A stretch of 63,718 nt of DNA, counting the filler, from Candidatus Coatesbacteria bacterium (GTDB taxonomy: Bacteria; JAFGND01): the NCBI GenBank assembly GCA_016927185.1. It is 6 parts of 6 records of this genome, joined end to end, with 100 filler letters (N's around TTAATTAATTAA, not from the genome) between each part and the next. Parts side by side here need not be neighbours in the genome. Positions count along the whole stretch, not along the records: positions 1 to 16,069 come from JAFGND010000019.1; 5 more parts are not named here. One strand, written 5' to 3'. Of the stretch, positions 2,782 to 63,326 are shown piece by piece (positions within the stretch are counted from its first letter, which is position 1; every line of letters begins with the position of its first letter). The notes under the pieces were generated by a model, which did no database searches, was not told the origin of the DNA, and saw only the letters and a program-made list of their open reading frames with translations. The position numbers were made by a program, and so were the translations under genes.

Positions 2782-4736
2782 TGTTACTGGTACTTGTTTA
2801 TTATCTTGCATTAAGTATTTCTGCAGATATGAACAAGTCGGGGAATTTTTCTGACAATGAGTTATCATATCAGATATTGATACCTGAAAAGAGAGAATCC
2901 CCATCTTATTATATTATTGCAGGATATAAGGATGCAAGAATTTCAAACATCATCTGGCATCTGGAACATTCACCTTTATGGGAAAGTGCATCCATGTACA
3001 AGATGCTTTCCTGCTTTGCCTTTAACAAGAAATTGACTAACTCTATGGAGACCTTGAATATAATTATCAATCCATATGCCAGTAATGGGATAGTCAGGGA
3101 TGTGAAAGTGAAAAGCAGTGACTACAAGACTGATTTCCTTAAATATTCTGTTGCATTGAGTTTGCAAAGCAAGGAGAAACTGGATACAATTCCTTCATAT
3201 TATAATATGACACTTGAGCTTCCTGTCTGGCTGTCAAGACTTGGAATGTCTCTTGTAAACAAGGATACTCCCTTGCTTGAAGGTAGATACTCGACAATAC
3301 CATTCATTAATGCAATAACTGATCCTTCACTTGCATTAAGGGAAGGTTTCGCATGGGCTAACTATGTATATACATGGGAATCAATGGATTCTGCCTTCAA
3401 GGACAGGGGAATGAAAGATTTCAGGATAAATGACTTTGGAAATCCCAATAAATGGCAGGTGTTTCAGGATTTCAATAAATCTTTCTCTACGTTGAGATTG
3501 GGAGTTTACAGATATGGCTCTTTCATGTGGATGGCTTTTTATCTGAAACCTCTTGTTATTTCAGGAACAAAGAATAATCTTTTCCTTAAGAAAACAGTTA
3601 TTCCAGAAAGAATAAGATCCTCATATTCACCGTCGGAAATTCTTCAGTATCAATGGATTATGCCTCCAGAATACACTGATAAAAACAAGAATCTTCAACA
3701 AGCACTTTCTTCTACAGGTGTTTGTGCGTATTTCTTTCATGAATGCCTTACAGATTCAGTTCTTGCAAGCAATTATGTAGATGCGGACTTTTACAGGAGC
3801 TTTCTTCCGGGAAACAGAAGTCTTGATGAAGACAAACTGAAGGAGGTTTTCAGTAAATACCATAATGTCCGCTTGAAATTATACGCAGCTTTTTATATGC
3901 TTGATTTCAAAGCAGTTAACTCATATCTTTTGCATGAATTTGTCTGGCATTATTCAACTCTTTTCCCTGAAGATGAGAAGAGAATCAAGGAAATTTATCA
4001 TAATGCTACAGGATATGATTTCAGCATTATTCCAGCTCAGCAGATTAAACTTACAAGCGATTGTGTATTAGGAGGTTACGGGCTCTTCTTCCCTGGAACA
4101 AAAACTGTAGGTACTCCACATTCATTCAACCTGAATGCAGCAACTTATGGTGACTTGAAATCAATATCTGGAATAAGGCACGATGAGATAGTCAAATTGC
4201 TTGAAGTCATTGATAACAAGGGAATTAAGGATTTCAAGGAAATAGATAGTCTTGGCTTAAGCAGCAAGACAGTTGAAAACATTAAGTTGATGAAAGACAA
4301 GAAGTTAGAAGAAAAGAAATCTGACAGGAGAATTTCCATTGAGATTCTCAAGCTGTTTTCACTGCTTTATTTGAAATATAACATGCTGCCATTCGCAGTA
4401 TTGCTTCTCTTTTTGTTCCTGATTGATTACACAATAAGGAAATATAAAGCAGATATCGCTTCAGAAGGCTTGAGAATAATTACATTTCCAGTGATGCCAG
4501 TGAAATTTCTCAAATATACTATAACATTCATTTCAGCAGCATTGATACTTCTGCTTCTAAATGTCAAAGTGTTCTCGACGTTTTTCTATCTCTTTGTATC
4601 TCTTAGTATTATACAGTCCGGAATATCATTCATGATTTATTCTTTAAAAAAGAAAACCTATCCATTCAAGTACAAGATATTTCTTGTTGTGCTGGAGAAT
4701 GCTACGATGATATTTCTTATACTACTTTTTATTTAG
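2781..4736 (+). CDS. Hypothetical membrane protein with helix-hairpin-helix-like segment and C-terminal TM helices
   Basis: 651-aa ORF overlapping the upstream stop (TAATG). NLNAATYGDLKSISGI is HhH-like. Hydrophobic C-terminus. Confidence 0.6.
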   Translation: MLLVLVYYLALSISADMNKSGNFSDNELSYQILIPEKRESPSYYIIAGYKDARISNIIWHLEHSPLWESASMYKMLSCFAFNKKLTNSMETLNIIINPYASNGIVRDVKVKSSDYKTDFLKYSVALSLQSKEKLDTIPSYYNMTLELPVWLSRLGMSLVNKDTPLLEGRYSTIPFINAITDPSLALREGFAWANYVYTWESMDSAFKDRGMKDFRINDFGNPNKWQVFQDFNKSFSTLRLGVYRYGSFMWMAFYLKPLVISGTKNNLFLKKTVIPERIRSSYSPSEILQYQWIMPPEYTDKNKNLQQALSSTGVCAYFFHECLTDSVLASNYVDADFYRSFLPGNRSLDEDKLKEVFSKYHNVRLKLYAAFYMLDFKAVNSYLLHEFVWHYSTLFPEDEKRIKEIYHNATGYDFSIIPAQQIKLTSDCVLGGYGLFFPGTKTVGTPHSFNLNAATYGDLKSISGIRHDEIVKLLEVIDNKGIKDFKEIDSLGLSSKTVENIKLMKDKKLEEKKSDRRISIEILKLFSLLYLKYNMLPFAVLLLFLFLIDYTIRKYKADIASEGLRIITFPVMPVKFLKYTITFISAALILLLLNVKVFSTFFYLFVSLSIIQSGISFMIYSLKKKTYPFKYKIFLVVLENATMIFLILLFI

Positions 4737-5252
4737 CTTCTTGATTGCACCCCATGTAGTCTTTGGAATGTCAGTTTCATAGGCTTCAAGGAATTTTGCT
4801 TTCATTGTTTCATAATTCGTACTGTTATCTCTCCAGTAAAGCCTGTGAGCTCCATTGACAATGTAATTCAATGGAATATATTCATTATAAGAGTATCTGT
4901 TCCATGCTTGATCCGCACAATCATTAAGAAAGACAAGATTAGTATATTTTTCCTTGAATGGTTTTACAGAGCTCTTGCTATCGTAGAAAAGACAGAACCA
5001 GATACTTGAGGGATAATTCTGCTTTAGCTCTTTTGCAAGTTTGTCCAGCCAGGGTAACTCCTCGCAGCATGAATTTCAGTAAGGAGAAAACCAGTTCATG
5101 ACAATTACATAACCTTTGTAATCCCTTGACTTATAGAATTTGGTTGAATCAAAGTCCCATAGAGTGAAAGCTGGTGCTTCATCTCCAAGATTAGGTCCTT
5201 TTGCTGCAAGAATGGATGTTATCAAGATAGCAAAGACAATAGCATTTTTCAT
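4722..5252 (-). CDS. Putative selenoprotein: TlpA/ResA-like redoxin with UxxC motif (in-frame TGA at codon 59), signal peptide and C-terminal TWGAIK tail, 176 aa
   Basis: Manual translation MKNAIVFAIL...WFSPY(TGA)NSCCEELPWLDKLA...TTWGAIKKLNKK*. The TGA aligns with the first Cys of WFSPFCVYC in the adjacent paralogue. GGAGGAG RBS. Frame stays open and homologous after the TGA. Confidence 0.85.
5034..5066 (-). promoter_or_regulatory. Candidate bacterial SECIS hairpin
   Basis: mRNA UGCGAG-GAGUUACC-CUGGCU-GGACAAA-CUUGCA starts 9 nt after the UGA, with a G-containing apical loop about 24 nt downstream. The lower stem is absent in the Cys paralogue. Folded by eye. Confidence 0.55.
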
Positions 5253-5265
5253 TGCTCCTCCTTGT

Positions 5266-5733
5266 TTATTTCAGCTCGTCGATAGTTTGCTTCATTTCCT
5301 TCTGGCTTATTGAATTCGTTCTTAGAGAGACTTTTCCTTCCTTGTTTATTATATAATTCACTGGAAGGAATTTGTTGAAAACATAGGATTTCCATGCAAC
5401 ATTGTTTGAATCATCAAGAAAAACAAGGTTTTTGCATTTTTCCTGGAAAGGTTTTACTGATTGCCTGCTATTATAATACAACAGGAAGAAAACTACATTA
5501 GACTTCTTGTAATCAAGGGCTAGCTTGTCCAGCCATTTTATTTCCTGTCTGCAATAGACACAAAAAGGACTGAACCAGGTTAAGACAATGACCTTTCCTT
5601 TGTAATCGCTGAGTTTGTATTCCTTTTTCTTGCCAAAGCAGTGCAGCTTGAAGTCAGGGGCAGGATCTCCTTTCTGGACTGCTGCAAAAACAAGACTAAC
5701 TGCGAATAGAATAAGGATAATTGTATTTCTCAT
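5266..5733 (-). CDS. TlpA/ResA-family thiol-disulfide redoxin (CVYC), exported
   Basis: GDPAPDFKL...LSDYKGKVIVLTWFSPFCVYC...P.NYIINKEG; signal peptide. Confidence 0.88.
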   Translation of the reverse strand: MRNTIILILFAVSLVFAAVQKGDPAPDFKLHCFGKKKEYKLSDYKGKVIVLTWFSPFCVYCRQEIKWLDKLALDYKKSNVVFFLLYYNSRQSVKPFQEKCKNLVFLDDSNNVAWKSYVFNKFLPVNYIINKEGKVSLRTNSISQKEMKQTIDELK

Positions 5734-5903: not shown

Positions 5904-6818
5904 CTACCTTACCTTCACCACCCTCTTGCATTCCTTCCCTGTCTTAATAATATAAACTCCCTGTTTCCAGCTGCTTGTATCAAGAGAATGCTTGCCTTTA
6001 TCTAGTTTCATTATTAGTTGCCCAGTCAAAGAATAGATAGCCCCTGAAGATGGCAGGGAGAGTGACAAGCGGGAGGAGAAGGGGTTGGGAGAAATGGAGA
6101 AGGATTTGGATGGAATATAAGATGTTGATTTGTTACTACTGTAACCAGTATTAATATAGGTTTCTATTGCATATAAATAATAATCATCACTTCCAACATA
6201 AACAATTCCAACTGCGATACAGGGAGAAGAATATACCCAACTACCTGTCTTATATTTCCATTTAAGAGTTCCTGTTGAGCAGTTTATTGCATTAAGATAA
6301 TGATCACAACTTCCAACATAGACAACTCCATCTGAAACACAAGGAGAGGACAAGTAAATCCAAAAATCTGTCTTATATCTCCATTTAAGAGTTCCATCAG
6401 AGCAGTTTATTGCATAAAGATAATCATCTCTACTTCCAATATAAACAACTCCATCAGAAACACAAGGAGAAGATTCAACCATTCCACCTGTCTGTTATCT
6501 CCATTTAAGACTTCCATCTGAGCAGTTTATTGCATAAAGATAATCATCCTCACTTCCAACGTAAACAACTCCTTCTGAAACACAAGGAGAAGAGTAAACC
6601 CGATCACCTGTCTTATATCTCCATTTAAGAGTTCCAGCTGAGCTGTTTATTGCATAAAGATAAGAATCATCACTTCCAACATAAACAACTCCATTTGCGA
6701 CACAAGGAGAAGAATGAACACCAGAACCTGTTTGATATCTCCATATCAAATCTCCGGGAGCTGAGAAAAGAAATCCTATTGAAAAAAGAATGAAAATAGA
6801 GATCAATAATGCTTTCAT
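5904..6818 (-). pseudogene. PQQ-like (BamB-type) beta-propeller repeat protein, 5 repeats plus T9SS-type CTD, interrupted by one in-frame TAA
   Basis: ORFs 6495-6818 and 5904-6482 are in the same frame. KWR*QTG has TAA where the other repeats have a Tyr codon. Confidence 0.8.
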
Positions 6819-6828
6819 TTTTACCTCC

Positions 6829-8109
6829 CTACATCTTTATAATTCTTTTTGATTTATTATTGCACTTCACAATATAAACTCCCATTCTCCATTTACTTGT
6901 GTCTATAGAATGCTTTCCTTTATCTAACTTCATAATCAGCTGACCAGTAAGGGAATATACAGCTCCTGAGGATGGTAGAGTTACTGACAGGTGGGAGGAG
7001 AAGGGATTGGGAGATATGGAGAAAGATTTAGCTGGAATTTTAATATCTGTTTTTTTATCCCTAAAGCCATCTTTATAAGTTTCTATGGCATAAAGGTTAT
7101 CATCATTACTTCCGACATATACAACTCCATCTGAAACACAAGGGGAAGAGGAAATACCTATTAAGTTTTCAATGCTATGTATACTTCCAAATCTCCACCT
7201 AAGAGATCCATCTGAGCAGTTTACTGCATAAAGATTATTATCATTACTTCCAACATATACAACTCCATCTGAAACACAAGGAGAAGAACTAATATAAGAT
7301 CCTGTTTGATATCTCCACTTAAGAGTTCCATCAGAGATATTTATTGCATAAAGATAATTATCATCACTCCCAACGTAAACAACTCCATCTAAGACACAAG
7401 GAGAGGAGTAAACATAATGACCTGTCTGATATCTCCATTTAAGAGTTCCATTAGAACAATTTATTGCATAAAGATAATTATCATTACTTCCAATATATAC
7501 AACTCCATCTGAAACACAAGGAGAAGAATTAACCCAAGCGCTTGTCTGATATCTCCATTTACGTTTTCCATTTGAGCTATTTACTGCATAAATCTCGCAA
7601 GACAAACTTCCAATATAAATAACTCCATCTGAGACACAAGGTGATGAAGTAAGAATATATGTCCAATATCTCCATTTAAAAGCTCCATCTGAACAATTTA
7701 TTGCATATAGATACTGGTCTTGACTTCCAACATAAACAACTCCATCTGAAACACAAGGTGAGGAGTAAATAACATTTTTCGTTAAATATCTCCATTTAAG
7801 AGTTCCATCAGAACAGTTTATTGCATAAAGATAACTATCATCACTCCCAACATAAACAACTCCATCTAAGATACAAGGTGAGGAGTCAACTTCATCACCT
7901 GTCCTATATCTCCATTTAAGAGTTCCATCAGAACAGTTTATTGCATAAAGATAATGATCATCACTCCCAAAATAAACAACTCCATCTGAGACACAAGGTG
8001 AGGAGTAAATATTATCACCTGTCTCATACTTCCATATCAAATCCCCTGGCGCTGAAAAGAGAAGATTATTCAAGTATAGCAGAAATAAGATAATTATTAA
8101 AATTCTCAT
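6829..8109 (-). CDS. Secreted PQQ-like beta-propeller protein (8 x 40-aa repeats) with T9SS type A-like CTD
   Basis: Repeats LKWRYxTGxxVxSSPCVSDGVVYVGSxDxxLYAINCSDG; signal peptide; C-terminal SPNPF...GVYIVK...KRIIKM. Confidence 0.9.
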   Translation of the reverse strand: MRILIIILFLLYLNNLLFSAPGDLIWKYETGDNIYSSPCVSDGVVYFGSDDHYLYAINCSDGTLKWRYRTGDEVDSSPCILDGVVYVGSDDSYLYAINCSDGTLKWRYLTKNVIYSSPCVSDGVVYVGSQDQYLYAINCSDGAFKWRYWTYILTSSPCVSDGVIYIGSLSCEIYAVNSSNGKRKWRYQTSAWVNSSPCVSDGVVYIGSNDNYLYAINCSNGTLKWRYQTGHYVYSSPCVLDGVVYVGSDDNYLYAINISDGTLKWRYQTGSYISSSPCVSDGVVYVGSNDNNLYAVNCSDGSLRWRFGSIHSIENLIGISSSPCVSDGVVYVGSNDDNLYAIETYKDGFRDKKTDIKIPAKSFSISPNPFSSHLSVTLPSSGAVYSLTGQLIMKLDKGKHSIDTSKWRMGVYIVKCNNKSKRIIKM

Positions 8110-33824: not shown

Positions 33825-34895
33825 ATGAGATTTATTATTTTATCTGTACTGGTGTTTTCTTTTTGCCTCTATGCAAAAAGTGGACCCTATAAAAAATCCA
33901 TGCTAAATCCTTATAGCTCCATTTCTGTAAAGGATAAGAATCTCGATTCCAATAAGAATATTGGATATTCCTGGGAACAAAAAACCCCATCTCCAACAGC
34001 TTTTGCAAGAGGTTCATTTGCATTAATAAACGGAAAATTCTATGTCTTTTCTAGAACAAATAATATAAGACATGCTTATGATTATTCAGCTAATTCCTGG
34101 ACAGAGGTTACAAATGATCCTGGACCAAATCTATATTCAACATTTGGAGATAATGGTACCAAATTATACTGCTGGGGTGGGGCAAATCCAATGACTGCAG
34201 TATTGAGGATATATGATACTACTTCAGACAAATGGGATAGTTTCTCTGATCCTCATCCATTTGGTTCATATATATATGCAGGAAGAGCTTTCCCTTTGGA
34301 TAGCAACAGAATGTTCATTATACCAGGATCCACTTCAACCACGATGGATGTAGCATCCAACAAGTGCTATATATATAATATTTCTACTGCTACTTATACT
34401 CAAGCACCAGATATGCCCTTCGCACTATATGGTTTTGCTGCAATAAAAGATGGTAATCAAATAGTTGTCCTGGGAGGAAAAAATACCGCTCAAGCCAGGA
34501 CAAAGTACTGCCTGATATATTACATCAGCAGTTCAACCTGGGTAAATCTTGCGGGTGCTTATTTACCTGAGGATACATGGCAGGGAGCTGTTGTAAAAAC
34601 TGGAAATAGCTATTATTATATAGGTGGAGGTAATGGAAATTCATCTGATCCTTGTTCAAACAAGGTATATAGATGGAATGGTTCAACCTGGGCACAAGAT
34701 ACAAATTTGCCTTATTATGGAGGAACGATTGCTGCTGTTTCTCCTGATAACAACAGAATATTGATTTTTGGTGGTCTGGGAAGCCCTTCCAATCCAAATA
34801 ATGGCTATCCACTTAACCTATGTTATATGTCTTCAAACACTGGAATAAGAAAACTTACATGGGGAGAAATAAAACAAACCTTCATAGATAAATAA
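33825..34895 (+). CDS. Secreted Kelch-repeat beta-propeller protein with C-terminal TWGEIK tail
   Basis: GG/Y/W Kelch pattern; signal peptide; TGIRKLTWGEIKQTF. Confidence 0.8.
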   Translation: MRFIILSVLVFSFCLYAKSGPYKKSMLNPYSSISVKDKNLDSNKNIGYSWEQKTPSPTAFARGSFALINGKFYVFSRTNNIRHAYDYSANSWTEVTNDPGPNLYSTFGDNGTKLYCWGGANPMTAVLRIYDTTSDKWDSFSDPHPFGSYIYAGRAFPLDSNRMFIIPGSTSTTMDVASNKCYIYNISTATYTQAPDMPFALYGFAAIKDGNQIVVLGGKNTAQARTKYCLIYYISSSTWVNLAGAYLPEDTWQGAVVKTGNSYYYIGGGNGNSSDPCSNKVYRWNGSTWAQDTNLPYYGGTIAAVSPDNNRILIFGGLGSPSNPNNGYPLNLCYMSSNTGIRKLTWGEIKQTFIDK

Positions 34896-37246: not shown

Positions 37247-37444
37247 CTATCCACCTCCAACAATGCTTACTATCTCAAGAATATCATTGTCTTTTAACAT
37301 AATTTCGTTCCAGTTATCTTTTTTTATGATTTCTCCATTCAATTCAATAATAATATTCTGGGTAATTCCTAAACCAGATAACAGGTCTATTATTCCCATA
37401 TTTTTTTCGAATTCCTTTGTTTCACCATTTATCCTTAATAACAT
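37247..37444 (-). CDS. thiS: Sulfur carrier protein ThiS
   Basis: 65 aa, ING..., ends EIVSIVGGG. Confidence 0.93.
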   Translation of the reverse strand: MLLRINGETKEFEKNMGIIDLLSGLGITQNIIIELNGEIIKKDNWNEIMLKDNDILEIVSIVGGG

Positions 37445-38443
37445 TACTTTTTTCCTTCTGCTTTTTCTTTCAACAAAATTGCATCAGGCTTCTCTAGTTG
37501 ATTATAAATCAGTCTGATATCTGGTCTTTTTCTTTCTGCAAGTGAATATTTTTCCTTTATCTGCCTGATTCTAGTTATTGATTCATCAAGTCTTTCATGA
37601 GATATTTTTTCAGTCTTTATAGCATTGTATAGTGCATTATAGGATCTTTCCCAGTAATCATCGCCTTCGCAAATCAATAGAATATCTACTCCTGCATTAA
37701 AGGCTTTTACAATTGCATCTTCAAAGGAATAGTACTTCATCAAAGCATTCATGAGTATGTCATCAGTTATTATAAGCCCTTTGTAACCCCATTTCTTTCT
37801 CAAGATATTTGTAACGAATTCCTTTGATAATGATGCAGGAAGACTGTCTATTGTTTCTACTAATAAATGACCAATCATTAAACAATCAATTTTATCTTCT
37901 TTGATTAATTCTCTGAAAGGCATTAAATCTGTTTTTTTTAACTGATCCAGATTCCTTTTTATCCTGGGTAAATCTTTATGAGAATCAGTTGATGTACTTC
38001 CATGCCCAGGAAAGTGTTTGGGAACAGCTATCAGTTTCTTTTCTAAATGTCCTTCAATAAATTTCCTTCCATAACTTAGTACCACATCTGGATCAGAACT
38101 ATAACTTCTACTCTCTATTACTTTGTTTTTCTTATTCGTATATACATCCAAGACAGGTGCGAAATTCATGTTAATGCCAAGTGATAAAAGCTCATGAGCC
38201 ATGAATCTTGAACAATCCTTTATTTCGAATAAATCTAATTCCCTGCTTATCTGCTTCGCAGAAGGAAAATGGGTTATGCTATTCGAAAATCGATGAACTC
38301 TCCCCCCTTCATGATCAATTGCAATAAAAGGTGGAATATTATTATTTGCTTCTTCTGATAGATTTCTTAAGGAAGTTGTTAAATTGACGATTTGTTCAGG
38401 ATTGCTAAGATCCTTTGAAAATAAAACAAAATTCCCAATATGG
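37444..38443 (-). CDS. nagZ: Beta-N-acetylhexosaminidase (GH3), 5'-truncated at the gap
   Basis: Frame is open to the gap with IAIDHEGGRV; KHFPGHG...DSH; ITDD. Confidence 0.88.
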
Positions 38444-38543
38444 NNNNNNNNNNNNNNNNNNNNNNNNNNNNNNNNNNNNNNNNNNNNTTAATTAATTAAN
38501 NNNNNNNNNNNNNNNNNNNNNNNNNNNNNNNNNNNNNNNNNNN
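38444..38543. other. Artificial contig linker
   Basis: N/TTAATTAATTAA/N. Confidence 0.98.
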
Positions 38544-38728
38544 ATAATTGACCACCAAACTGCATAAAGTAATGTATTAAAAATGTACAATATAGCAAAC
38601 ACTCTATCTTCTATATATCACTTCTTCAACTGCCCAAGCATCTTTAAATAATAAAAAGTTTTATATTGACACAAAAAGTCTGGATTCATTCCTCTTCTTT
38701 ATAAAAGACTTAGGAAAAGGAGTAGACA

Positions 38729-38896
38729 ATGGCTTACAAGATTTCAAATGAATGCGTTTCTTGTGGTACTTGCATTTCAGAATGTCCAGTAGAAGCAATT
38801 TCAGAGGGTGAACCGTATGTCATAGATCCAGATAAATGCACAGATTGTGGATCTTGTGCTGCAGTATGCCCTGTTGAAGCGATTTCACAGGCATAA
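38729..38896 (+). CDS. fdx: 2[4Fe-4S] clostridial-type ferredoxin (55 aa; below the ORF-track cutoff)
   Basis: MAYKISNECVSCGTCISECPVEAISEGEPYVIDPDKCTDCGSCAAVCPVEAISQA*; AAGGAG RBS. Confidence 0.95.
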   Translation: MAYKISNECVSCGTCISECPVEAISEGEPYVIDPDKCTDCGSCAAVCPVEAISQA

Positions 38897-38910
38897 TTCA
38901 GAAGTAATTG

Positions 38911-38934
38911 AAACCCGCTTAAGCGGGTTTTTTT
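38911..38934 (+). terminator. Intrinsic terminator
   Basis: AAACCCGCTTAAGCGGGTTTTTTT. Confidence 0.85.
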
Positions 38935-38967
38935 ATTCAATTTTGTTAAACTAGCGAGAGGAGGGAT

Positions 38968-52498: not shown

Positions 52499-55400
52499 AT
52501 GAGTGTCATTTGTGACTTGAAATATATGGATGAAGAGAAGCTTCTGAAGAACAAATCCGCTTTTCTTATGGAAGTGGAGAGTTACATAACTGAAATTCTT
52601 CCAGAAAAGCTGCCCAGTAATTTCTGTTCAATTGCAGGATCTTCAGACATATTTCTTCTTAGCCATATTTTCAGGAAATCGAAAGACAATGTCTTTGTCG
52701 TTACAAAAGATGAACTGGAAGCTGACAGGATTTACCTGGAATACAAGAGTCTGTATGGAGACATGGAACTTGCGATATTCCCGTCATGGGATATACTGCC
52801 ATATGAGGATGCATCACCTTCTAAAAGCGTGATAAAAGAGCGTCTTGAAACCATGCACAGGCTTCTGAGAGCTGAAAAATCAATGATAATAATTTCTGTG
52901 GAAGCATTGATGCAGGTAACCATTCCTCCCGACATACTTCTTGAGAATCTGGTGGAGATAAGGAAAGACCAGGAAACCGAGCCCCAGAAGTTCATAAACA
53001 TACTTATATCAAAAGGTTACATAAGAACATTTCTCGTGCAGAATCCAGGTGAATGCTCGCTCAAGGGTGACGTATTAGACGTTTTCCCATTCGGTCACCG
53101 TCTGCCGAAGAGGATTGAGTTCTTTGATAACAAGGTTGAAAGCATCAGGGCATTCTCTCCATCAACCCAGCGTTCAATAGAAAAACATGATGAAGTGATT
53201 TTCCTGCCTGTAGAGGAAGCTATACTTACAGAAGAGCATCATGGAAGAATTCAGGAAAATGAGCTTTTCGAGAGAAGATTCGAATTCTATCTGCCCCTGC
53301 TCTACAATCAAAGCTCATTCATATTTGATTATCTCAACAGCAATTGCACAATAATCTTGCATAGCAAGTTTGATCTTCAAAGAAGAGCTGACAGGAAAAT
53401 CAAGCAAGCCATTGAAAGATATGAACTTGAGGGGATTTCTCGCAAAATGTGCAAGCCTGAAGAGATTTTCCTGACATTCGAGAAGATTGAAGAGAAACTG
53501 AAGACTATGAAAATCTCCCCGATAATAATAGAGCCTCTTCTTGATCTGGAAGATGGCTTCAATCTTGGCTTTCTTGAGCCTGGATCCCTTTATCTGAATT
53601 TCGAGGAATTCCAGCAGAAGGCATTCAAGGAGCAGGAAGCAGGAAAGAGGATTTTCATTACTGGTCATACACTTACGCAGCTGAGAAGACTTAACAGCCT
53701 TCTTTCAGATGGACTGGAGGCATCCTATTTCCAGAGCGGTCTTGACAGGGGATTCGAGATAAAGGGCAGGAACATACTGCTGTTTGCTGACAGTGATATT
53801 ACACAGAAAACCTCAAGGAAAAGACACAGGATTGGATGGGACGGAATCTCGGAAGTCATTGAATCCCTTCCTGATATAGCACTGCTTAATGATGGTGATT
53901 ATATTGTGCATTTCGATTTCGGTATAGGATATTACAGGGGAATGTCATCAGTGAAAACCTCCCTTCAATCGATAGACTGCATTATAATTGAATATGCAAA
54001 GGGAGATAAGATATATGTGCCTGTAGATCAGCTAGACAAGGTGTTCAAGTATATCGGGGGAGAAGCAAGTATTGACAGGATTGGCTCAACAAGATGGCCT
54101 AAAGCAAAGCAGAAGGCATATGAAGCAACAAGGGAGATAGCAGAAGAGCTTCTGAACATCTATGCTGCAAGAAAGGCAAATCCAGGATTCAACTACACTC
54201 CAGACAGTCAGCTTATGCATGTCCTTGAAAGCAGGTTCCCGTTCATAGAAACAGAGGATCAGATTCAGGCAATACATGAAGTCAAGAAGGATATGGAAAT
54301 GGCAGAACCCATGGACAGGCTTATTTGCGGGGATGTCGGTTTCGGGAAGACTGAGGTGGCACTTAGAGCCGCTTTCAAGGCAGCACTGGATGGCAAGCAG
54401 GTGGCAATCCTTGCTCCAACGACAATACTTACAGAGCAGCATTATAATACCTTCTACAAGAGGCTTGAGGGAATGCCAATAAAGGTAGAGAGTATTTCAA
54501 GATTCAAGACTTCAAGGGAGCAGAAGCTTATACTGAATTCGCTCAAGAAAGGTGAGATTGATATAATAATAGGTACTCACAGGCTTCTGTCAGAAGATGT
54601 TGAATTCAGGGACTTAGGTCTTGTGATAATAGATGAAGAGCAGAAGTTCGGAGTGGTTCACAAGGAAAGGTTGAAGAAATTCAGGCTGGAAGTTGATGTA
54701 TTGACACTTACAGCCACTCCAATTCCAAGAACCCTGTATATGAGCATAATGGGGGCAAAGGATATTTCAAAGATCAATACACCCCCAATAGGACGTCAAT
54801 CCATTGATACAAGGATAGTTGCATTCAAGGATGACATAATAAAAAATGCAATCTACAGGGAAGTGGAAAGAGGTGGGCAGGTTTTCTTTGTTCATAATCG
54901 CGTGCAGACAATACTGTCTGTTTCAAACAAGGTAAAAGAGCTTGTTCCTGATTTGTCAATTGCTGTTGCTCATGGTCAGATGCGCTCTCAGCAGCTTGAA
55001 AAAGTCATGTCGGACTTTTCTGAAGGATTCTATGATGTGCTTGTTTCTACAATGATAATTGAAAGCGGTCTGGATATGCCAAATGTAAATACAATAATAA
55101 TAAATCAGGCTGACAGGTTTGGTTTATCACAGTTGTATCAGCTAAGGGGCAGGGTAGGGAGGTCGAAGAGAAAAGCGTATGCTTATTTTATTGTTTCCCA
55201 TAAAGATAAGCTGACTGACATCGCGAACAAGCGTCTTCAGGCAATAAAGAAATACTATGATTTAGGATCTGGTTTCAATATTGCAATGAAGGATCTTGAG
55301 ATAAGAGGTACTGGGGACATTCTTGGAGCAAAGCAGAGTGGACATATTGCTGCAATAGGATATGAACTTTATTGCAAGATGCTCAAAGAAAGCATTGAAG

Positions 55401-56345: not shown

Positions 56346-57524
56346 ATGAAACTAGGATCTGCAGTAATTATAAGTCTTATAATTTCACTTTCATTGATTG
56401 CATTCTCTTGTGGTGATGAAGATGAAGATAATAATGACTCAGGAACTGGTACTGGAAGCGGGACTAGTTTTATTAGTTTACTTTTATGGAGATATAAGAC
56501 AGGTGGAGATATTAACTCTTCTCCTTGTGTCTCTGATGGAGTTGTTTATGTTGGAAGTAATGATTCTTATCTTTATGGAATAAACTGTTCAGATGGAACT
56601 ATTAAATGGAGATATAGGACAGGTAATTGGATTTTGTCCTCTCCTTGTGTCTCTGATGGAGTTGTTTTTGTTGGAAGTAATGATAATTATCTTTATGCAA
56701 TAAACTGTTCAGATGGTACTTTGAAATGGAGATATGAGACTGGTAATTATGTTTATTCCTCTCCTTGTGTCTCAAATGGAGTTGCTTATGTTGGTAGTTG
56801 GGATGCTTATCTTTATGCAATAAACTGCTCAGATGGAACACTAAAATGGAGATATTATATATTTAGTAGAGTTGACTCATCTCCTTTTGTCTCAGATGGA
56901 GTTGTTTTTGTTGGAAGTCAGGATGATTATCTTTATGCAATAAACTGCTCAAATGGAACTCTTAAATGGAGATATAAGACAGATGATTATGTTTACTCCT
57001 CTCCTTGTGTCTATGATGGAATTGTTTATGTTGGAAGTTTTGATAGTTATCTTTATGCAATAAACATTACTGATGGAACTCTTAAATGGAGATATAGGAC
57101 AGGTAATTGGATTTTGTCCTCTCCTTTTGTCTCTGATGGAGTTGTTTATGTTGGAAGTCATGATGCTTATATTTTTGCAATAAACTGCTCAGATGGAACT
57201 CTAAAATGGAGATATCTTACTGGTAATAGTGTTGACTCCTCTCCTTGTGTTTCTGAAGGAGTTGTTTATGTTGGAAGCTGGGATGATTATCTTTATGGAA
57301 TAAACTGTGCAGATGGAACTCTAAAATGGGAGTTTAAGACAGGTCTTGATGTTCAATCTTCCCCTTGTGTTTCAGATGGAGTTGTTTATGTTGGAAGTTA
57401 TGATAGTTATCTTTATGCAGTAAAAGCTGGCAGTTATAAAAGATTATCAAAGAGCAAGTTTCCTGAAAAGAGACAGAGTTCGTTTAAATCCAGTTTTTCA
57501 TTGCCAACCAATCCAGAGGAATAG
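56346..57524 (+). CDS. PQQ-like beta-propeller lipoprotein (8 repeats)
   Basis: Lipobox AFSC, acidic/Gly-Thr linker, eight 120-bp repeats, KSSFSLPTNPEE tail. Confidence 0.9.
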   Translation: MKLGSAVIISLIISLSLIAFSCGDEDEDNNDSGTGTGSGTSFISLLLWRYKTGGDINSSPCVSDGVVYVGSNDSYLYGINCSDGTIKWRYRTGNWILSSPCVSDGVVFVGSNDNYLYAINCSDGTLKWRYETGNYVYSSPCVSNGVAYVGSWDAYLYAINCSDGTLKWRYYIFSRVDSSPFVSDGVVFVGSQDDYLYAINCSNGTLKWRYKTDDYVYSSPCVYDGIVYVGSFDSYLYAINITDGTLKWRYRTGNWILSSPFVSDGVVYVGSHDAYIFAINCSDGTLKWRYLTGNSVDSSPCVSEGVVYVGSWDDYLYGINCADGTLKWEFKTGLDVQSSPCVSDGVVYVGSYDSYLYAVKAGSYKRLSKSKFPEKRQSSFKSSFSLPTNPEE

Positions 57525-57552
57525 GATTTTTTTATGCAACCAAATGGAGAGA

Positions 57553-57652
57553 NNNNNNNNNNNNNNNNNNNNNNNNNNNNNNNNNNNNNNNNNNNNTTAA
57601 TTAATTAANNNNNNNNNNNNNNNNNNNNNNNNNNNNNNNNNNNNNNNNNNNN
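57553..57652. other. Artificial contig linker
   Basis: N/TTAATTAATTAA/N. Confidence 0.98.
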
Positions 57653-57746
57653 ATTTTATTCATTGACAAAAGATTATGATTTTCAGAAATAAATATTTGA
57701 AGGAAAACAATCATGCAAATAATATTAAATATTATGGGAGGTTGAA

Positions 57747-58661
57747 ATGAGTGCATTTTTAATACTTCTGATTGCTATAACTTATTTTTCACCTGCTATC
57801 ACCTTGATTATTCCCAACGGAGGAGAGAAATGGAGAGTTGGTTCGACACAGAAAGTGAAATGGCAAGCAGATAGTCAGGATTTATGGTGGATTGGATATA
57901 CTACCCAGGGTTACGGCAACTGGAAACAGATTGCATATGGTTACAACAGCAGCAGAGAATATGACTGGCTGATCCCAGACACTCCTTCAGATAACTGCCG
58001 AGTTGAGCTTATTGTAGATTGGTACTATTATACCTATTTTGATCAAAGTGATAATCCGTTCAGTATATACAAAGGATCATTAAATGTGACTTCCCCAAAT
58101 GGAGGTGAGAGATGGGCAGCTGGATCAAGTCATGATATTACCTGGGAAACAACAGGTAATATTCCTTTTGTAAGACTTGCATATTCAACAAATGGAGGGC
58201 TTGTATGGCATGCCATTGCTTTCAACATTGATCCAAAGACATGTCTATATTCATGGCAGCTTCCAGATGTAAATTCAGATTATTGCTATGTAAAAATTGC
58301 TGATGATATAGACGAATACTATAACGATAGAAGTGATAATTATTTTACTATTTACAGTACAGGTTTTAATGCAAAAAATAATACAATTACTTTACCATCA
58401 AAGATTGATTTGACTGTCTCTCCCAATCCTGTGAGAAAAACCGCGAAAATATCCTTCTTTTTGCCCAAAACATCATCTGTAGATTTTTGCATTTATAATA
58501 TGAAAGGAGAAAAAATACTAGTTGAAAATCCAGGGATTTTTCAGAAAGGGCTTAACGATTTCTATTTAAGGAATTTAAGTATTATTAGTGATGGCATATA
58601 TTTGTTGCATATCAAGACTCCATATGCTTCAAATAGCTGCAGATTTATAAAACTTAAATGA
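57747..58661 (+). CDS. Secreted protein with two PNGGE Ig-like domains and T9SS type A-like CTD
   Basis: PNGGE.W..GS...I.W...D.SDN.F.I twice; VSPNP...IYN.KG...G.Y... Confidence 0.8.
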   Translation: MSAFLILLIAITYFSPAITLIIPNGGEKWRVGSTQKVKWQADSQDLWWIGYTTQGYGNWKQIAYGYNSSREYDWLIPDTPSDNCRVELIVDWYYYTYFDQSDNPFSIYKGSLNVTSPNGGERWAAGSSHDITWETTGNIPFVRLAYSTNGGLVWHAIAFNIDPKTCLYSWQLPDVNSDYCYVKIADDIDEYYNDRSDNYFTIYSTGFNAKNNTITLPSKIDLTVSPNPVRKTAKISFFLPKTSSVDFCIYNMKGEKILVENPGIFQKGLNDFYLRNLSIISDGIYLLHIKTPYASNSCRFIKLK

Positions 58662-61073: not shown

Positions 61074-63326
61074 CTACCTCATTATTACTAGTCTCTTGCT
61101 TACTTTCAAATCATTTGCTTCAATAGTATAGATATAAACCCCATTTGGAACGGAATTATAACCCACATTCCATGCTATACTCTTAAAACCAGAATTCAGC
61201 GTGTTTTCATAAACTGTTTTCACCAGTTTTCCAGTCAAGTCATAGACTTTTATAAGGATTTTTGTCTTGACTGGCAAGTTGATCTTGAAAATCGCTTTTT
61301 CTCTAACCGGATTAGGGAAAATACCGAGGAATTCAGTTTTTCCAGGTATTTTGACAGCACTTTTATTAACTGCAAAGCCAGATTTTTCTTCAACCCTTAT
61401 GCTGTCAAGTGCAGGGACAGTATTAACAAAACTTGCTGTTGCTTGTATCCATCCGGTTTTCTGTTCTGAAACAAAGAATAATACTGTACCGGAGGTATTG
61501 GTTGTATCAACTCTATAGAGGTTTGGTTCATTCAAATTATAATCATGTTGCCACAAGCAGACTTTTGAACCTGAAACAGGTACATTGTCTCTTGTTACAT
61601 TTATTGTCAGCACTGTTCCTTCTCCCTGAACTACTGTATCTTTATCAGAAGCTAAAGCCAGTATCCCAGGATCCTTTGTTCTTATCTCAGCAGCTGGATC
61701 AGCATTATACCAGTACATGTATATTATATCTCTTCCGTAACTGCCTTCCTGGTTGAGTTTTACATCAGCAAACATCTTGCATAATGACATTCGGTGTATT
61801 CCTTCATTGAAGGTAGCTTTTATTATTTCCTTGGCAAGTGTATGATTATTGTTTGTCCATGAAGGATCTGATGATCCGAGACTCGAGACAGCTCCCCCTG
61901 GATATTTATTCAGTAATGCTTCCTGGAAAGTGTAGTTATTATATCTTAGATCAGCATTATCACAACATATATTGTATACAACAGGATATCTGTCTTCATT
62001 ATTAAGCTGATTTACGTCACTGGTACTATAGCATTGGGATACATTCCAGTAATACCAGCTTATAGCATCTCCATGACCTCTGTATAATACAACTCCCGAG
62101 CCTATATTAATAGAATTAGAAACGTTTTGATTGTTTTTCTGTCCCTGGCTTCCTGAGCCATAAATTTTCTCGAAATTAGGTTGCTGCTTTGTATAAGAAA
62201 AACCAGCGATTTGTTCACAACATCCTTCATATTTACCAGGTGCTTCCTGGTAATGAGCTACCAGTGGAAGATGGCTATACCATGTTCCAAAAGCAGGAGT
62301 CAGGATATAATATAATGTCCTGCTTATATGAACTCCAAGTTCATCATTATTCTTTATAGCAAAACGTCCAATTCCGAATTCACATAAAGCATCATTACCA
62401 TCCACCATTGCATAATAAGTATCACTTAATGCACTATATGCAGAATATCGATGGGTATACATCGGAATATCAACATAGTCACCAATTATCAGCACGTATT
62501 TTATGCCATAGCTATGATAGGCATTAGCAAGATAGTTTTTTACATTGTCAACTGAAGCCCCAATCTGGGATATGGGAACAGTCATAACATAAAATCCGCT
62601 ACGAATATACCAGGTAACAAGTGGAGCGAAAACATTTTCTGTTCCATCTTTATATATAATAAGGTATTCAGGGTTTGGAGGTGCATCAGTGTATCCAACA
62701 TTCTTGCTTTGATAGTTAATTATCCTGTTCCTGTACATTTTATCCCAATCAGGATCAACCTTTTTCACTGGACAAGAAGGAAATTTGGGATCAGGATTAT
62801 CAACAAAACTGATTACTATTTTTGCCTTCTTGAAGATTGCAAGAGTTTTATTATTCCTGTCATATCTGAAAGGTATGAAATTTAAACCCGACACAACCAG
62901 GTGACGCCATATGGAATTTTCTTCCATGACCGCAGAAGTTGCTGGAAAATATCCCTTGTAATCTTTTGCAATTGGTTTTGCTGGTTCTTGTGTGTCCACT
63001 GTAGGTTCAGGAGTTGGCAGAACATCAATATTTTTAATATATATCATTTCTGCATCCTTGACTGTAGCTATTGCTTTCTTGTTTCCAGGCAAAGTTATCA
63101 AGGTTGTGAATTTAGGCAAATAAGGGAAACCGGTTTCATCAGTATAACTGCAATCATTTACTACAATTTTTGAATAACCACTTTTATCCTTTGCTATATT
63201 ATATTCAGGCATCTCGAATTCCAGAATGACTTTGCTTGCATCGCTTCTAATTAATTTGAATGGCGCATTTGCATTAAGCAAAGAAAATGCAAATAGCAGA
63301 ATTGAAAATGAAATGAGAAATTTCAT
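61074..63326 (-). CDS. Gingipain-like C25 cysteine peptidase with propeptide and T9SS type A-like CTD
   Basis: G.P.LP propeptide, YVLIIGD, SD.YY, IGR, YRGHG (His), NICCD (Cys); FPNP...VYDLTGKLV...GVY...KRLVIMR. Confidence 0.9.
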   Translation of the reverse strand: MKFLISFSILLFAFSLLNANAPFKLIRSDASKVILEFEMPEYNIAKDKSGYSKIVVNDCSYTDETGFPYLPKFTTLITLPGNKKAIATVKDAEMIYIKNIDVLPTPEPTVDTQEPAKPIAKDYKGYFPATSAVMEENSIWRHLVVSGLNFIPFRYDRNNKTLAIFKKAKIVISFVDNPDPKFPSCPVKKVDPDWDKMYRNRIINYQSKNVGYTDAPPNPEYLIIYKDGTENVFAPLVTWYIRSGFYVMTVPISQIGASVDNVKNYLANAYHSYGIKYVLIIGDYVDIPMYTHRYSAYSALSDTYYAMVDGNDALCEFGIGRFAIKNNDELGVHISRTLYYILTPAFGTWYSHLPLVAHYQEAPGKYEGCCEQIAGFSYTKQQPNFEKIYGSGSQGQKNNQNVSNSINIGSGVVLYRGHGDAISWYYWNVSQCYSTSDVNQLNNEDRYPVVYNICCDNADLRYNNYTFQEALLNKYPGGAVSSLGSSDPSWTNNNHTLAKEIIKATFNEGIHRMSLCKMFADVKLNQEGSYGRDIIYMYWYNADPAAEIRTKDPGILALASDKDTVVQGEGTVLTINVTRDNVPVSGSKVCLWQHDYNLNEPNLYRVDTTNTSGTVLFFVSEQKTGWIQATASFVNTVPALDSIRVEEKSGFAVNKSAVKIPGKTEFLGIFPNPVREKAIFKINLPVKTKILIKVYDLTGKLVKTVYENTLNSGFKSIAWNVGYNSVPNGVYIYTIEANDLKVSKRLVIMR

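What the first reader, a model, noticed from the sequence alone, without database searches (positions are those of the whole stretch)
4722..5252. Hidden secreted selenoprotein (UxxC redoxin) in tandem with its Cys paralogue
Seen: an ORF absent from the track, with strong RBS and signal peptide, has one in-frame TGA (5076-5078) exactly where the neighbouring paralogue has the attacking Cys (WFSPY-U-NSC versus WFSPF-C-VYC). It continues 117 sense codons with clear homology (WLDKLA, SVKPF.EK..NLVFL, P.NYI). A hairpin with a G-containing loop follows the UGA and is not kept in the paralogue. Established: UxxC thioredoxin-fold proteins and 3'-adjacent SECIS elements are hallmarks of bacterial selenoproteins. 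Inference: an exported Sec/Cys redoxin pair. Only the Sec copy has the TWGxIK tail, so it may be a surface-displayed or secreted selenoenzyme, which is unusual.
Basis: partly seen in the sequence, partly recalled or inferred. Interest (0 to 1): 0.85.

Follow-up and report, generated by a model that had tools for sequence, protein, structure and literature searches.

The report
Unannotated exported selenocysteine redoxin gene
A gene that public annotation splits at a TGA "stop" most likely encodes one exported thiol-disulfide redox enzyme with selenocysteine at its active site, a new but unsurprising member of a known class of bacterial selenoproteins.

Summary
Window 4722-5252 (-) is a 176-codon frame with a strong RBS, an N-terminal signal-like segment and one TGA (5076-5078). 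That TGA aligns with the first Cys of the CxxC site of the tandem paralogue (5266-5733) and of 62 other redoxins.

It is not an error or a fresh nonsense mutation. Contigs from two other studies keep the TGA. Two divergent metagenome homologues (36-39% identity downstream of the site) carry TGA at the same codon, and the sequence after it is under purifying selection. TGA is an ordinary stop in 12 of 50 window ORFs.

All three TGA-bearing genes place a hairpin with loop AGUUA 16 nt after the TGA, which fits the published bacterial SECIS model. Its statistics are weak, and for the window copy alone it is not beyond chance.

The AlphaFold2 model (pLDDT 90.6) is a ResA/TlpA-type thioredoxin fold.

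Sec machinery could not be checked, because no genome or close relative is held.

[quoted passage not shown] The short C-terminal TWGxIK tail also occurs on an unrelated exported protein in the window and remains unexplained.

Verdict: very probably real; a new member of a known kind.

The parts
4722..5252 (-). Whole selenoprotein candidate gene: 176 codons plus a TAG stop, a TlpA/ResA-like redoxin with a U-N-S-C active site
   Evidence: Searches give the frame. Pfam AhpC-TSA scores 30.4 bits against a cutoff of 26. The AF2 model has pLDDT 90.6 and its top PDB match is ResA 1su9, TM 0.88 by target length.
5076..5078 (-). In-frame TGA (codon 59), the proposed selenocysteine codon at the position of the first Cys of CxxC
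   Evidence: It aligns with Cys in the paralogue and with a column that is Cys in at least 90% of 63 aligned redoxins. TGA sits at the same column in L001 and L002. It is unchanged in contigs of runs X2 and X4.
5046..5067 (-). SECIS-like hairpin; the apical loop AGUUA is at 5055-5059 and starts 16 nt after the TGA
   Evidence: GGAGUUACC is invariant in 3 of 3 TGA-bearing genes, 19 of 24 cells pair, and 3 of 8 pairs change on both sides. In the window copy the stem is interrupted and is not better than synonymous recodings.
5067..5069 (-). Codon of Cys62, the second (resolving) Cys of the UxxC motif
   Evidence: Invariant in all 63 aligned sequences.
5199..5252 (-). N-terminal signal-like segment (about residues 1-18)
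   Evidence: Sequence read. It is the most variable part between strains: 8 of the 9 nonsynonymous codon changes in the X2 variant fall in codons 3-12. No predictor was available, so this was judged by eye.
5257..5263 (-). Ribosome-binding site AAGGAGG, 4 nt upstream of the ATG
   Evidence: Read directly.
4725..4766 (-). C-terminal tail with the motif TWGAIKKLNKK; function unknown, possibly sorting or anchoring
   Evidence: The same motif sits 9-11 residues from the C-terminus in P0005, P0018, P0020, L001 and the window's Kelch protein. In the model this region has low confidence, pLDDT 57-60.
5266..5733 (-). Tandem Cys paralogue (155 aa, CVYC), 13 nt upstream of the Sec gene on the same strand
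   Evidence: Pfam AhpC-TSA E 1.7e-17.

Best explanation
The frame 4722-5252 (-) is one gene for an exported TlpA/ResA-type thiol-disulfide oxidoreductase.

Inferred mechanism:
1. The UGA at codon 59 is decoded as selenocysteine. A SelB-type factor would be recruited by the small hairpin (loop AGUUA) that begins 16 nt after the UGA.
2. The product carries a U-x-x-C active site at the N-terminus of the first long helix of a thioredoxin fold.
3. Sec59 is the attacking nucleophile and Cys62 resolves the mixed selenenylsulfide.
4. The N-terminal signal-like segment sends the unfolded chain through the Sec translocon, so the enzyme works outside the cytoplasm on disulfides or oxidised thiols.
5. The upstream Cys paralogue is probably co-transcribed and may act as a selenium-independent twin.

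Shown: the frame, the Cys/Sec alignment, conservation of the TGA and of the downstream sequence in other organisms, the fold, and the conserved hairpin position.

Inferred: Sec insertion itself, export, the reaction, co-transcription, and any role of the C-terminal TWGxIK tail.
For: 1. Cys/Sec pair. U59 aligns with the first Cys of the paralogue's CVYC. In the 63-sequence alignment that column is Cys in at least 90% of rows, and Cys62 is invariant. It also aligns with the CxxC of PDB 3hdc.

2. TGA kept across divergence. L001 371-910 (WFWTG-U-PTC) and L002 566-1147 (WFWSG-U-GSC) carry TGA in the same alignment column.

3. Both halves conserved. Downstream of the TGA, window vs L001 is 39% identical (E 4e-28), window vs L002 36% (E 6e-22), and L001 vs L002 68%. 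Upstream, window vs L001 is 48% identical. Downstream of the TGA, L001 vs L002 gives pN 0.22 against pS 0.74.

4. Not an error. X2 and X4 contigs from other studies cover 5076-5078 with no change. All 25 differences of the X2 contig and all 5 of the X4 contig are listed, and none lies in the codon. In the mature part of the X2 variant, 5 codon changes are synonymous and 1 is K46R.

5. TGA is otherwise a stop. It ends 12 of 50 ORFs. No other long frame in the window is split by a TGA into two sizeable halves (homology of the halves was not tested).

6. Hairpin. Loop AGUUA lies 16 nt after the UGA in 3 of 3 genes, and 19 of 24 cells pair against 29-54% when the partners are slid. L001's fold is reached by 0.7% of 2000 synonymous recodings. 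For L002, 1.8% of recodings have a compliant hairpin at least as stable. These features match the bSECIS rules read in PMC13188914, Fig. 2 legend.

7. Fold. pLDDT is 90.6, residue 59 sits just before helix 60-79, and ResA is the top PDB match.

8. Truncated gene calls. Gene callers elsewhere cut relatives at this site. P0003 (58 aa) ends at the site. P0043 and P0275 are the C-terminal parts of L002 and L001. P0005 has W at the site.
Against: - No Sec machinery was seen, and none could be looked for. No genome is held. The window has only tRNA-His, and none of the 49 ORFs scanned against Pfam is SelA, SelB or SelD. No close relative's genome was reached.
- The window's own hairpin is weak. It has no run of 4 or more contiguous pairs, its MFE is -8.0 kcal/mol, and 33.7% of synonymous recodings fold as well.
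- The Cys paralogue has an unrelated hairpin that passes the same loose rules, so the criterion has low specificity.
- With 3 sequences the covariation statistics are weak: 25 of 500 shuffles reach the observed percentage paired, and 70 of 500 reach the covariation score.
- Part of the invariant GGAGUUACC encodes E-L-P, which Cys homologues also keep at protein level.
- No Rfam family matches.
- L001 and L002 come from one metagenome.
- There is no RNA or protein evidence.
Confidence: 0.8

Rival explanations
1. The UGA is read through, but not as selenocysteine. Trp, Cys or Gly would be inserted by a suppressor or near-cognate tRNA, or by a local recoding signal.
For: P0005, a predicted protein from another collection, shows W at this position. 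No Sec machinery could be shown.
Against: - The site is the catalytic Cys of a CxxC, where Trp or Gly would abolish the chemistry.
- The W in P0005 is more simply a gene caller using a TGA=Trp table on an 890-base contig (inference; its DNA could not be fetched).
- TGA ends 12 of 50 ORFs, and no other long window frame is split by an internal TGA into two sizeable halves.
- The conserved hairpin at SECIS spacing is what Sec insertion needs.
Confidence: 0.08
2. The TGA is a true stop. The gene would be a decaying pseudogene, or only a 58-residue exported peptide would be made.
For: Table 11 reading and public annotation give fragments. A nearby PQQ-repeat gene does carry an in-frame TAA, so broken genes exist in this contig.
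Against: - The same TGA is kept in homologues whose synonymous sites are saturated, while the 117 codons after it stay under purifying selection.
- The one change downstream of the TGA in the X2 strain is synonymous.
- A 58-residue piece would end just before the active site and lack most of the fold.
Confidence: 0.05
3. The TGA is a sequencing or assembly error for TGT or TGC.
For: None found.
Against: Contigs assembled from runs of two other studies (X2, X4) carry the same three bases. L001 and L002 have TGA at the same column.
Confidence: 0.01

Closest known systems
Prx-like thiol:disulfide oxidoreductase selenoproteins (pfam00578 AhpC-TSA, UxxC/UxxU), as tabulated in PMC13188914 and PMC9312934 (passages and tables read)
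   Same: The Pfam domain scores above its cutoff. Sec sits at the first position of a UxxC motif, and Cys-containing homologues are abundant.
   Different: It is very divergent: the exhaustive search found only about half a dozen close relatives among 1.84 billion representatives. It carries a signal-like N-terminus and a C-terminal TWGxIK tail. No sequence of the named reference members was compared here.
ResA / TlpA / CcmG(DsbE) extracytoplasmic thiol-disulfide oxidoreductases (PDB 1su9, 3gl3, 4nmu)
   Same: The fold matches (TM 0.84-0.89 by target length, rmsd 1.5-2.6 A). The CxxC position matches, and the location is predicted to be outside the cytoplasm.
   Different: It has Sec instead of the first Cys. 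The NCBIfam ResA subfamily score is 43.6 bits against a cutoff of 170. No cytochrome c maturation genes are nearby; the link of ResA to cytochrome c maturation is recalled, not from a call.
[quoted passage not shown]
   Same: These are TlpA/redoxin-type folds with Sec in the active-site motif.
   Different: The scores are far below cutoff: 15.1 against 300 and 14.8 against 100. The motif here is U-x-x-C with W-F-x-x-x before it, not WAxxUGC or TUGYCR.
Exported selenoproteins of the SAO system (SaoB, SaoC, SaoX), bioRxiv 10.1101/2022.07.06.499078 (passages read)
   Same: They are selenoproteins with signal or lipoprotein signal peptides, and databases truncate them at the TGA.
   Different: The folds and gene context are unrelated. 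Those are substrate-binding or CC-COOH proteins of Firmicutes.
Etrx2, surface-exposed lipoprotein thioredoxin of Streptococcus pneumoniae (PDB 2yp6, 4hqz)
   Same: The structural match is TM 0.81-0.85 by target length. It is a lipid-anchored extracytoplasmic redoxin, like the L002 homologue, which has a lipobox-like IASC.
   Different: It is a Cys enzyme. The window protein has no lipobox and has a C-terminal tail instead.

Membership tests
Bacterial selenoprotein (Sec-decoded UGA) | In-frame UGA aligned with a conserved, redox-active Cys of homologues (Cys/Sec pair) | tested here: met
   The column is Cys in at least 90% of 63 sequences, and the partner Cys62 is invariant.
Bacterial selenoprotein (Sec-decoded UGA) | TGA-containing homologues in other organisms, with conserved sequence on both sides of the TGA | tested here: met
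   L001 and L002. Strain variants in runs X2 and X4.
Bacterial selenoprotein (Sec-decoded UGA) | bSECIS hairpin. The rules, from PMC13188914, are: apical loop of 3-9 nt, upper stem of 4-16 bp, G in the first two loop positions, 16-37 nt from the UGA, MFE <= -7.5 kcal/mol | tested here: inconclusive
   Loop AGUUA with G second, 16 nt from the UGA, is present in 3 of 3 genes.
- L001: 8 pairs with one bulge, -10.4 kcal/mol.
- L002: 5 contiguous pairs, -6.6 kcal/mol over 45 nt and -9.1 over 60 nt.
- Window: 3+2 pairs around a mismatch, -8.0 kcal/mol, not better than recodings.
The Cys paralogue also has a compliant hairpin elsewhere.
Bacterial selenoprotein (Sec-decoded UGA) | selA, selB, selC (tRNA-Sec) and selD in the same genome | not testable with these tools
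   No genome is held. None is in the 63.7-kb window. The genome-contig scans reached no relative.
Prx-like thiol:disulfide oxidoreductase selenoprotein (pfam00578, UxxC/UxxU) | pfam00578 domain together with a UxxC or UxxU motif, the criterion as worded in PMC9312934 | tested here: met
   PF00578 scores 30.4 bits against a cutoff of 26. The motif is U-N-S-C.
ResA/TlpA-type thiol-disulfide oxidoreductase | Thioredoxin fold with the CxxC at the N-terminus of the first long helix | tested here: met
   The model has pLDDT 90.6 and residue 59 sits just before helix 60-79. ResA chains are the top PDB matches.
ResA/TlpA-type thiol-disulfide oxidoreductase | Score above the NCBIfam ResA subfamily cutoff | tested here: not met
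   NF002854 scores 43.6 bits against 170. The protein is ResA-like in fold but not a member of that curated subfamily.
NF041054 WAxxUGC / NF053656 TUGYCR selenoprotein families | Model score above cutoff, and the named motif | tested here: not met
   Scores are 15.1 against 300 and 14.8 against 100. The motifs are absent.
T9SS cargo (Por_Secre_tail C-terminal domain) | C-terminal domain of about 70-80 residues matching PF18962 / TIGR04183 | tested here: not met
   P0001 has no such hit, and its tail is only about 12 residues. A homologue, P0010, does carry TIGR04183 in that place.

The most novel reading that the evidence does not exclude
The short C-terminal motif TWGxIK(K/R), ending 4-6 residues before the C-terminus, would be an undescribed sorting or anchoring signal of an uncultured, T9SS-bearing lineage. 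It would place a selenoenzyme at the cell surface.

Three alternative attachment devices would then exist on one redoxin scaffold: the tail (window, L001, P0005, P0018, P0020), an N-terminal lipobox without the tail (L002), and a T9SS C-terminal domain (P0010). The adjacent Cys twin would serve when selenium is scarce.
Probability: 0.2. Interest if true: 0.6.

Novelty: new member of a known kind. Interest (0 to 1): 0.38.

Why it matters
It corrects an annotation. A public record holds this gene as a 58-aa and a 49-aa hypothetical fragment. Relatives in other collections are likewise cut at the TGA or read with W there.

It adds a rare, very divergent clade to the UxxC redoxin selenoproteins. 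It also implies that an uncultured low-GC lineage from sediment, wetland and biogas samples uses selenocysteine.

A Sec/Cys tandem pair is a natural system for asking what Sec buys a thiol-disulfide oxidoreductase outside the cytoplasm.

The unexplained C-terminal motif, shared with an unrelated exported Kelch protein, is a small separate lead on protein sorting.

Tried and rejected
Searches that found nothing or could not run
- Own-genome search for SelA: no genome is held.
- Word-indexed protein search with P0001 found nothing of near length. With the L001 protein it found only that protein's own 111-aa C-terminal fragment.
- The genome-contig scan with P0001 found no relative.
- Alignment A2 was too divergent for either collection. 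I then used the closer alignment A3 for the metagenome scan.
- The last genome-contig scan, with the window's Mfd, returned 61 loci. Nearly all were Clostridia MAGs at 21-51% identity, so no relative's handle was gained. Mfd's best database relatives are only 65% identical in the helicase core. The lineage stays unplaced, apart from four window proteins with Por_Secre_tail domains above Pfam's cutoff.
- Rfam showed only tRNA-His at gathering thresholds. At E <= 10 around the TGA and on L001 and L002 it gave only chance-level matches and no SECIS family.
- The promoter and terminator scan was not above shuffles.
- No RNA holder was listed among the sequencing runs.
- Runs X5 and X9 did not cover the TGA.
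- A literature search for the tail motif (WGxIK, TWGxIK, WGxIKxxY, SWGxIK) found 0 papers.

Readings considered and rejected
- An alternative genetic code (TGA as Trp or Gly) is rejected, because TGA ends 12 of 50 ORFs and is internal to no other credible gene.
- A motif search for TGA-N14-GGAGTTACC with up to 1 mismatch hit the site itself plus one 1-mismatch site inside mfd at 52711. I take the second as chance.

Supplementary files of the papers were not opened. They may list family members that bear on novelty.
Full report
OBSERVATION

On the minus strand, 4722-5252 is a single frame of 176 sense positions. It is interrupted only by a TGA at 5076-5078 (codon 59) and ends in TAG. Under table 11 it breaks into a 58-aa ORF (5076-5252) and a 49-aa ORF (4722-4871). 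An NCBI-sourced record holds exactly these two pieces.

AAGGAGG lies 4 nt before the ATG. The first 17 or so residues look like a signal peptide: basic, then hydrophobic, then small residues. This was judged by eye, as no predictor was available.

Thirteen bases upstream on the same strand lies a 155-aa paralogue (5266-5733). It is 44% identical (67 of 151, E 6e-45). Its C-V-Y-C aligns with U-N-S-C, and it lacks the last 20 or so residues of the TGA copy.

WHAT THE PROTEIN IS

- Pfam places both copies in AhpC-TSA/Redoxin. The TGA copy scores 30.4 bits against a cutoff of 26.
- The best NCBIfam match is the ResA subfamily, far below its cutoff at 43.6 against 170. The two curated Sec-redoxin models, WAxxUGC and TUGYCR, score 15 bits against cutoffs of 300 and 100.
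- An AlphaFold2 model built on 63 aligned homologues has mean pLDDT 90.6. It is a thioredoxin fold in which residue 59 sits immediately before helix 60-79.
- The best PDB matches are ResA (1su9, TM 0.88 by target length, rmsd 1.7 A), a Chlorobium DsbE-like protein, and the pneumococcal surface lipoprotein thioredoxin Etrx2. Sequence search of the PDB agrees, and it aligns the site with the CxxC of 3hdc.
- In the 63-sequence alignment Cys62 is invariant, and the column of residue 59 is Cys in at least 90% of rows.

IS THE TGA REAL AND MEANINGFUL?

Contigs from other studies. Logan contigs of two runs from other studies cover 5076-5078. X2 is a biogas fermenter metagenome and X4 another metagenome. 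The single X2 contig across the gene differs from the window at 25 places and the X4 contig at 5. All of these are listed, and none lies in the TGA. In the X2 strain, 8 of the 9 nonsynonymous codon changes fall in codons 3-12, the signal segment. The mature part has 5 synonymous changes and one K-to-R change.

Exhaustive protein search. A profile-free search of 1.84 billion representatives gave 827 hits at E <= 0.001, but very few close ones:
- the paralogue;
- a 58-aa fragment from another contig, 86% identical, that ends at the same residue;
- the window's own 49-aa fragment;
- P0005, a 216-aa protein with W where U stands;
- two C-terminal fragments, P0020 and P0043.

Metagenome scan. A JGI metagenome scan returned two loci. 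L001 371-910 encodes a 179-aa protein with WFWTG-U-PTC and the tail TWGGIKKLYQH. L002 566-1147 encodes WFWSG-U-GSC. Each has one TGA, in the same alignment column as the window's. P0043 is the C-terminal part of L002 by sight. P0275 is that of L001 (100% identity). Gene callers therefore cut these genes at the TGA.

Conservation around the TGA.
- Downstream, window vs L001: 39% identity, E 4e-28.
- Downstream, window vs L002: 36% identity, E 6e-22.
- Downstream, L001 vs L002: 68% identity.
- Upstream, window vs L001: 48% identity.
- Nei-Gojobori counts for L001 vs L002 downstream of the TGA give pN 0.22 against pS 0.74. Window pairs are saturated at synonymous sites.

A codon kept as TGA while synonymous sites have turned over, with purifying selection on both sides, is not a nonsense mutation.

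Genetic code. TGA ends 12 of 50 ORFs in the window. No other long frame is split by a TGA into two sizeable halves. A TGA-sense code is therefore excluded.

THE RNA ELEMENT

The bacterial SECIS model, as read in PMC13188914 (section 5 and the Fig. 2 legend), has four rules:
- an apical loop of 3-9 nt on a stem of 4-16 bp;
- a G in the first two loop positions, often followed by G or U;
- 16-37 nt between the UGA and the loop;
- MFE <= -7.5 kcal/mol.

All three TGA-bearing genes have the invariant stretch GGAGUUACC. It forms two G-C pairs around the loop AGUUA, starting 16 nt after the UGA. On the common structure 19 of 24 cells pair, against 29-54% when the partners are slid. Three of the 8 pairs change on both sides.

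The three copies differ in strength:
- L001's fold is -10.4 kcal/mol, reached by 0.7% of 2000 synonymous recodings.
- L002 has a 5-bp compliant hairpin; 1.8% of recodings have one at least as stable.
- The window copy has an interrupted stem (3+2 pairs) at -8.0 kcal/mol. That is no better than 33.7% of recodings.

The Cys paralogue has an unrelated hairpin 30 nt downstream that passes the same rules, so those rules are not specific.

Codon identity gives weak support. Among columns with the same amino acid in all three genes, 3 of 4 at +3 to +8 have identical codons, against 9 of 40 elsewhere. E-L-P is also kept at protein level in Cys homologues.

No Rfam family matches.

The hairpin is therefore consistent with a SECIS and positionally conserved, but it is not proof.

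WHAT COULD NOT BE TESTED

No genome is held for the window. The window has one tRNA, His. None of the 49 ORFs scanned against Pfam belongs to the Sec pathway.

Both genome-contig scans failed to reach a relative. The closest Mfd in 5.8 billion proteins is 65% identical in the helicase core.

No RNA run holding the gene was listed.

MECHANISM (INFERRED)

The protein is an exported ResA/TlpA-like reductase in which Sec59 attacks a substrate disulfide or an oxidised thiol. Cys62 then resolves the selenenylsulfide. The chemistry is inferred from Cys homologues and from general knowledge of CxxC redoxins (recalled). The tandem Cys copy may act as a selenium-independent twin.

THE TAIL

The motif W-G-x-I-K, 9-11 residues from the C-terminus, occurs in several proteins:
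- the window protein, L001, P0005 and P0020;
- the CxxC homologue P0018;
- an unrelated Kelch-repeat protein of the window with a signal-like N-terminus (33825-34895).

Among the 153 proteins of the search it is never internal. L002 lacks the tail but has a lipobox-like IASC after its hydrophobic N-terminus. P0010 carries a T9SS sorting domain in that place. This suggests, but does not show, a sorting or anchoring role. No paper uses the motif strings I searched. The model is unsure there, with pLDDT 57-60.

COMPARISON WITH WHAT IS KNOWN

Two reviews (PMC13188914 and PMC9312934; passages and tables read) list these predicted bacterial selenoproteins:
- "Redoxin family protein (PF08534; UxxC)";
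- thiol:disulfide interchange, DsbA-like and DsbG-like proteins.

By the domain-plus-motif criterion quoted in PMC9312934, this protein belongs to the first class. Selenoproteins with signal or lipoprotein signal peptides are described for the SAO system (bioRxiv 10.1101/2022.07.06.499078, passages read).

The finding is thus a new, rare and divergent member of a known kind, not a new kind. Supplements of these papers were closed and might list closer members.

VERDICT

The gene is real and mis-annotated, and selenocysteine decoding is the best explanation (about 0.8). Interest is moderate.

Noticed in passing
window 33825-34895 (+): A 356-aa Kelch-repeat protein with a signal-like N-terminus ends in ...LTWGEIKQTFIDK. 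This is the same C-terminal WGxIK motif as on the Sec redoxin, although the two proteins are unrelated.
   Followed up: partly
window 5904-6818 (-), stop at 6495-6497: Two adjacent PQQ-like beta-propeller ORFs (107 aa and 192 aa) look like one repeat gene interrupted by an in-frame TAA. The TAA stands where the other repeats have a Tyr codon (R-Y-K/Q-T; here R-stop-Q-T). This may be a pseudogene, a split gene or an assembly error.
   Followed up: no
window 5904-8109 (-), 56346-58661 (+), 61074-63326 (-): Several exported proteins carry Por_Secre_tail (T9SS) C-terminal domains: PQQ-like propellers and a C25 (gingipain-type) peptidase, plus a weaker match just below Pfam's cutoff on 57747-58661. 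This points to an FCB-type lineage. Mfd has no relative above 65% identity in the helicase core.
   Followed up: partly
L002 566-1147 (+): This Sec homologue has a lipobox-like IASC after its hydrophobic N-terminus and no WGxIK tail. A likelier start is the second Met cluster (MKKRN...), which would make it a lipoprotein form of the same selenoprotein.
   Followed up: no
window 37444-38202 (-): This ORF matches only positions 107-315 of the glycoside hydrolase family 3 N-terminal domain, and the 38203-38967 gap upstream has no long ORF. The gene may be truncated or frameshifted at its 5' end.
   Followed up: no
window 5264 (intergenic, between the paralogue's stop and the Sec gene's RBS): The X2 strain variant has a 2-base insertion (TA) here, and most of its amino-acid changes fall in the signal segment. 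The mature enzyme is almost unchanged.
   Followed up: yes
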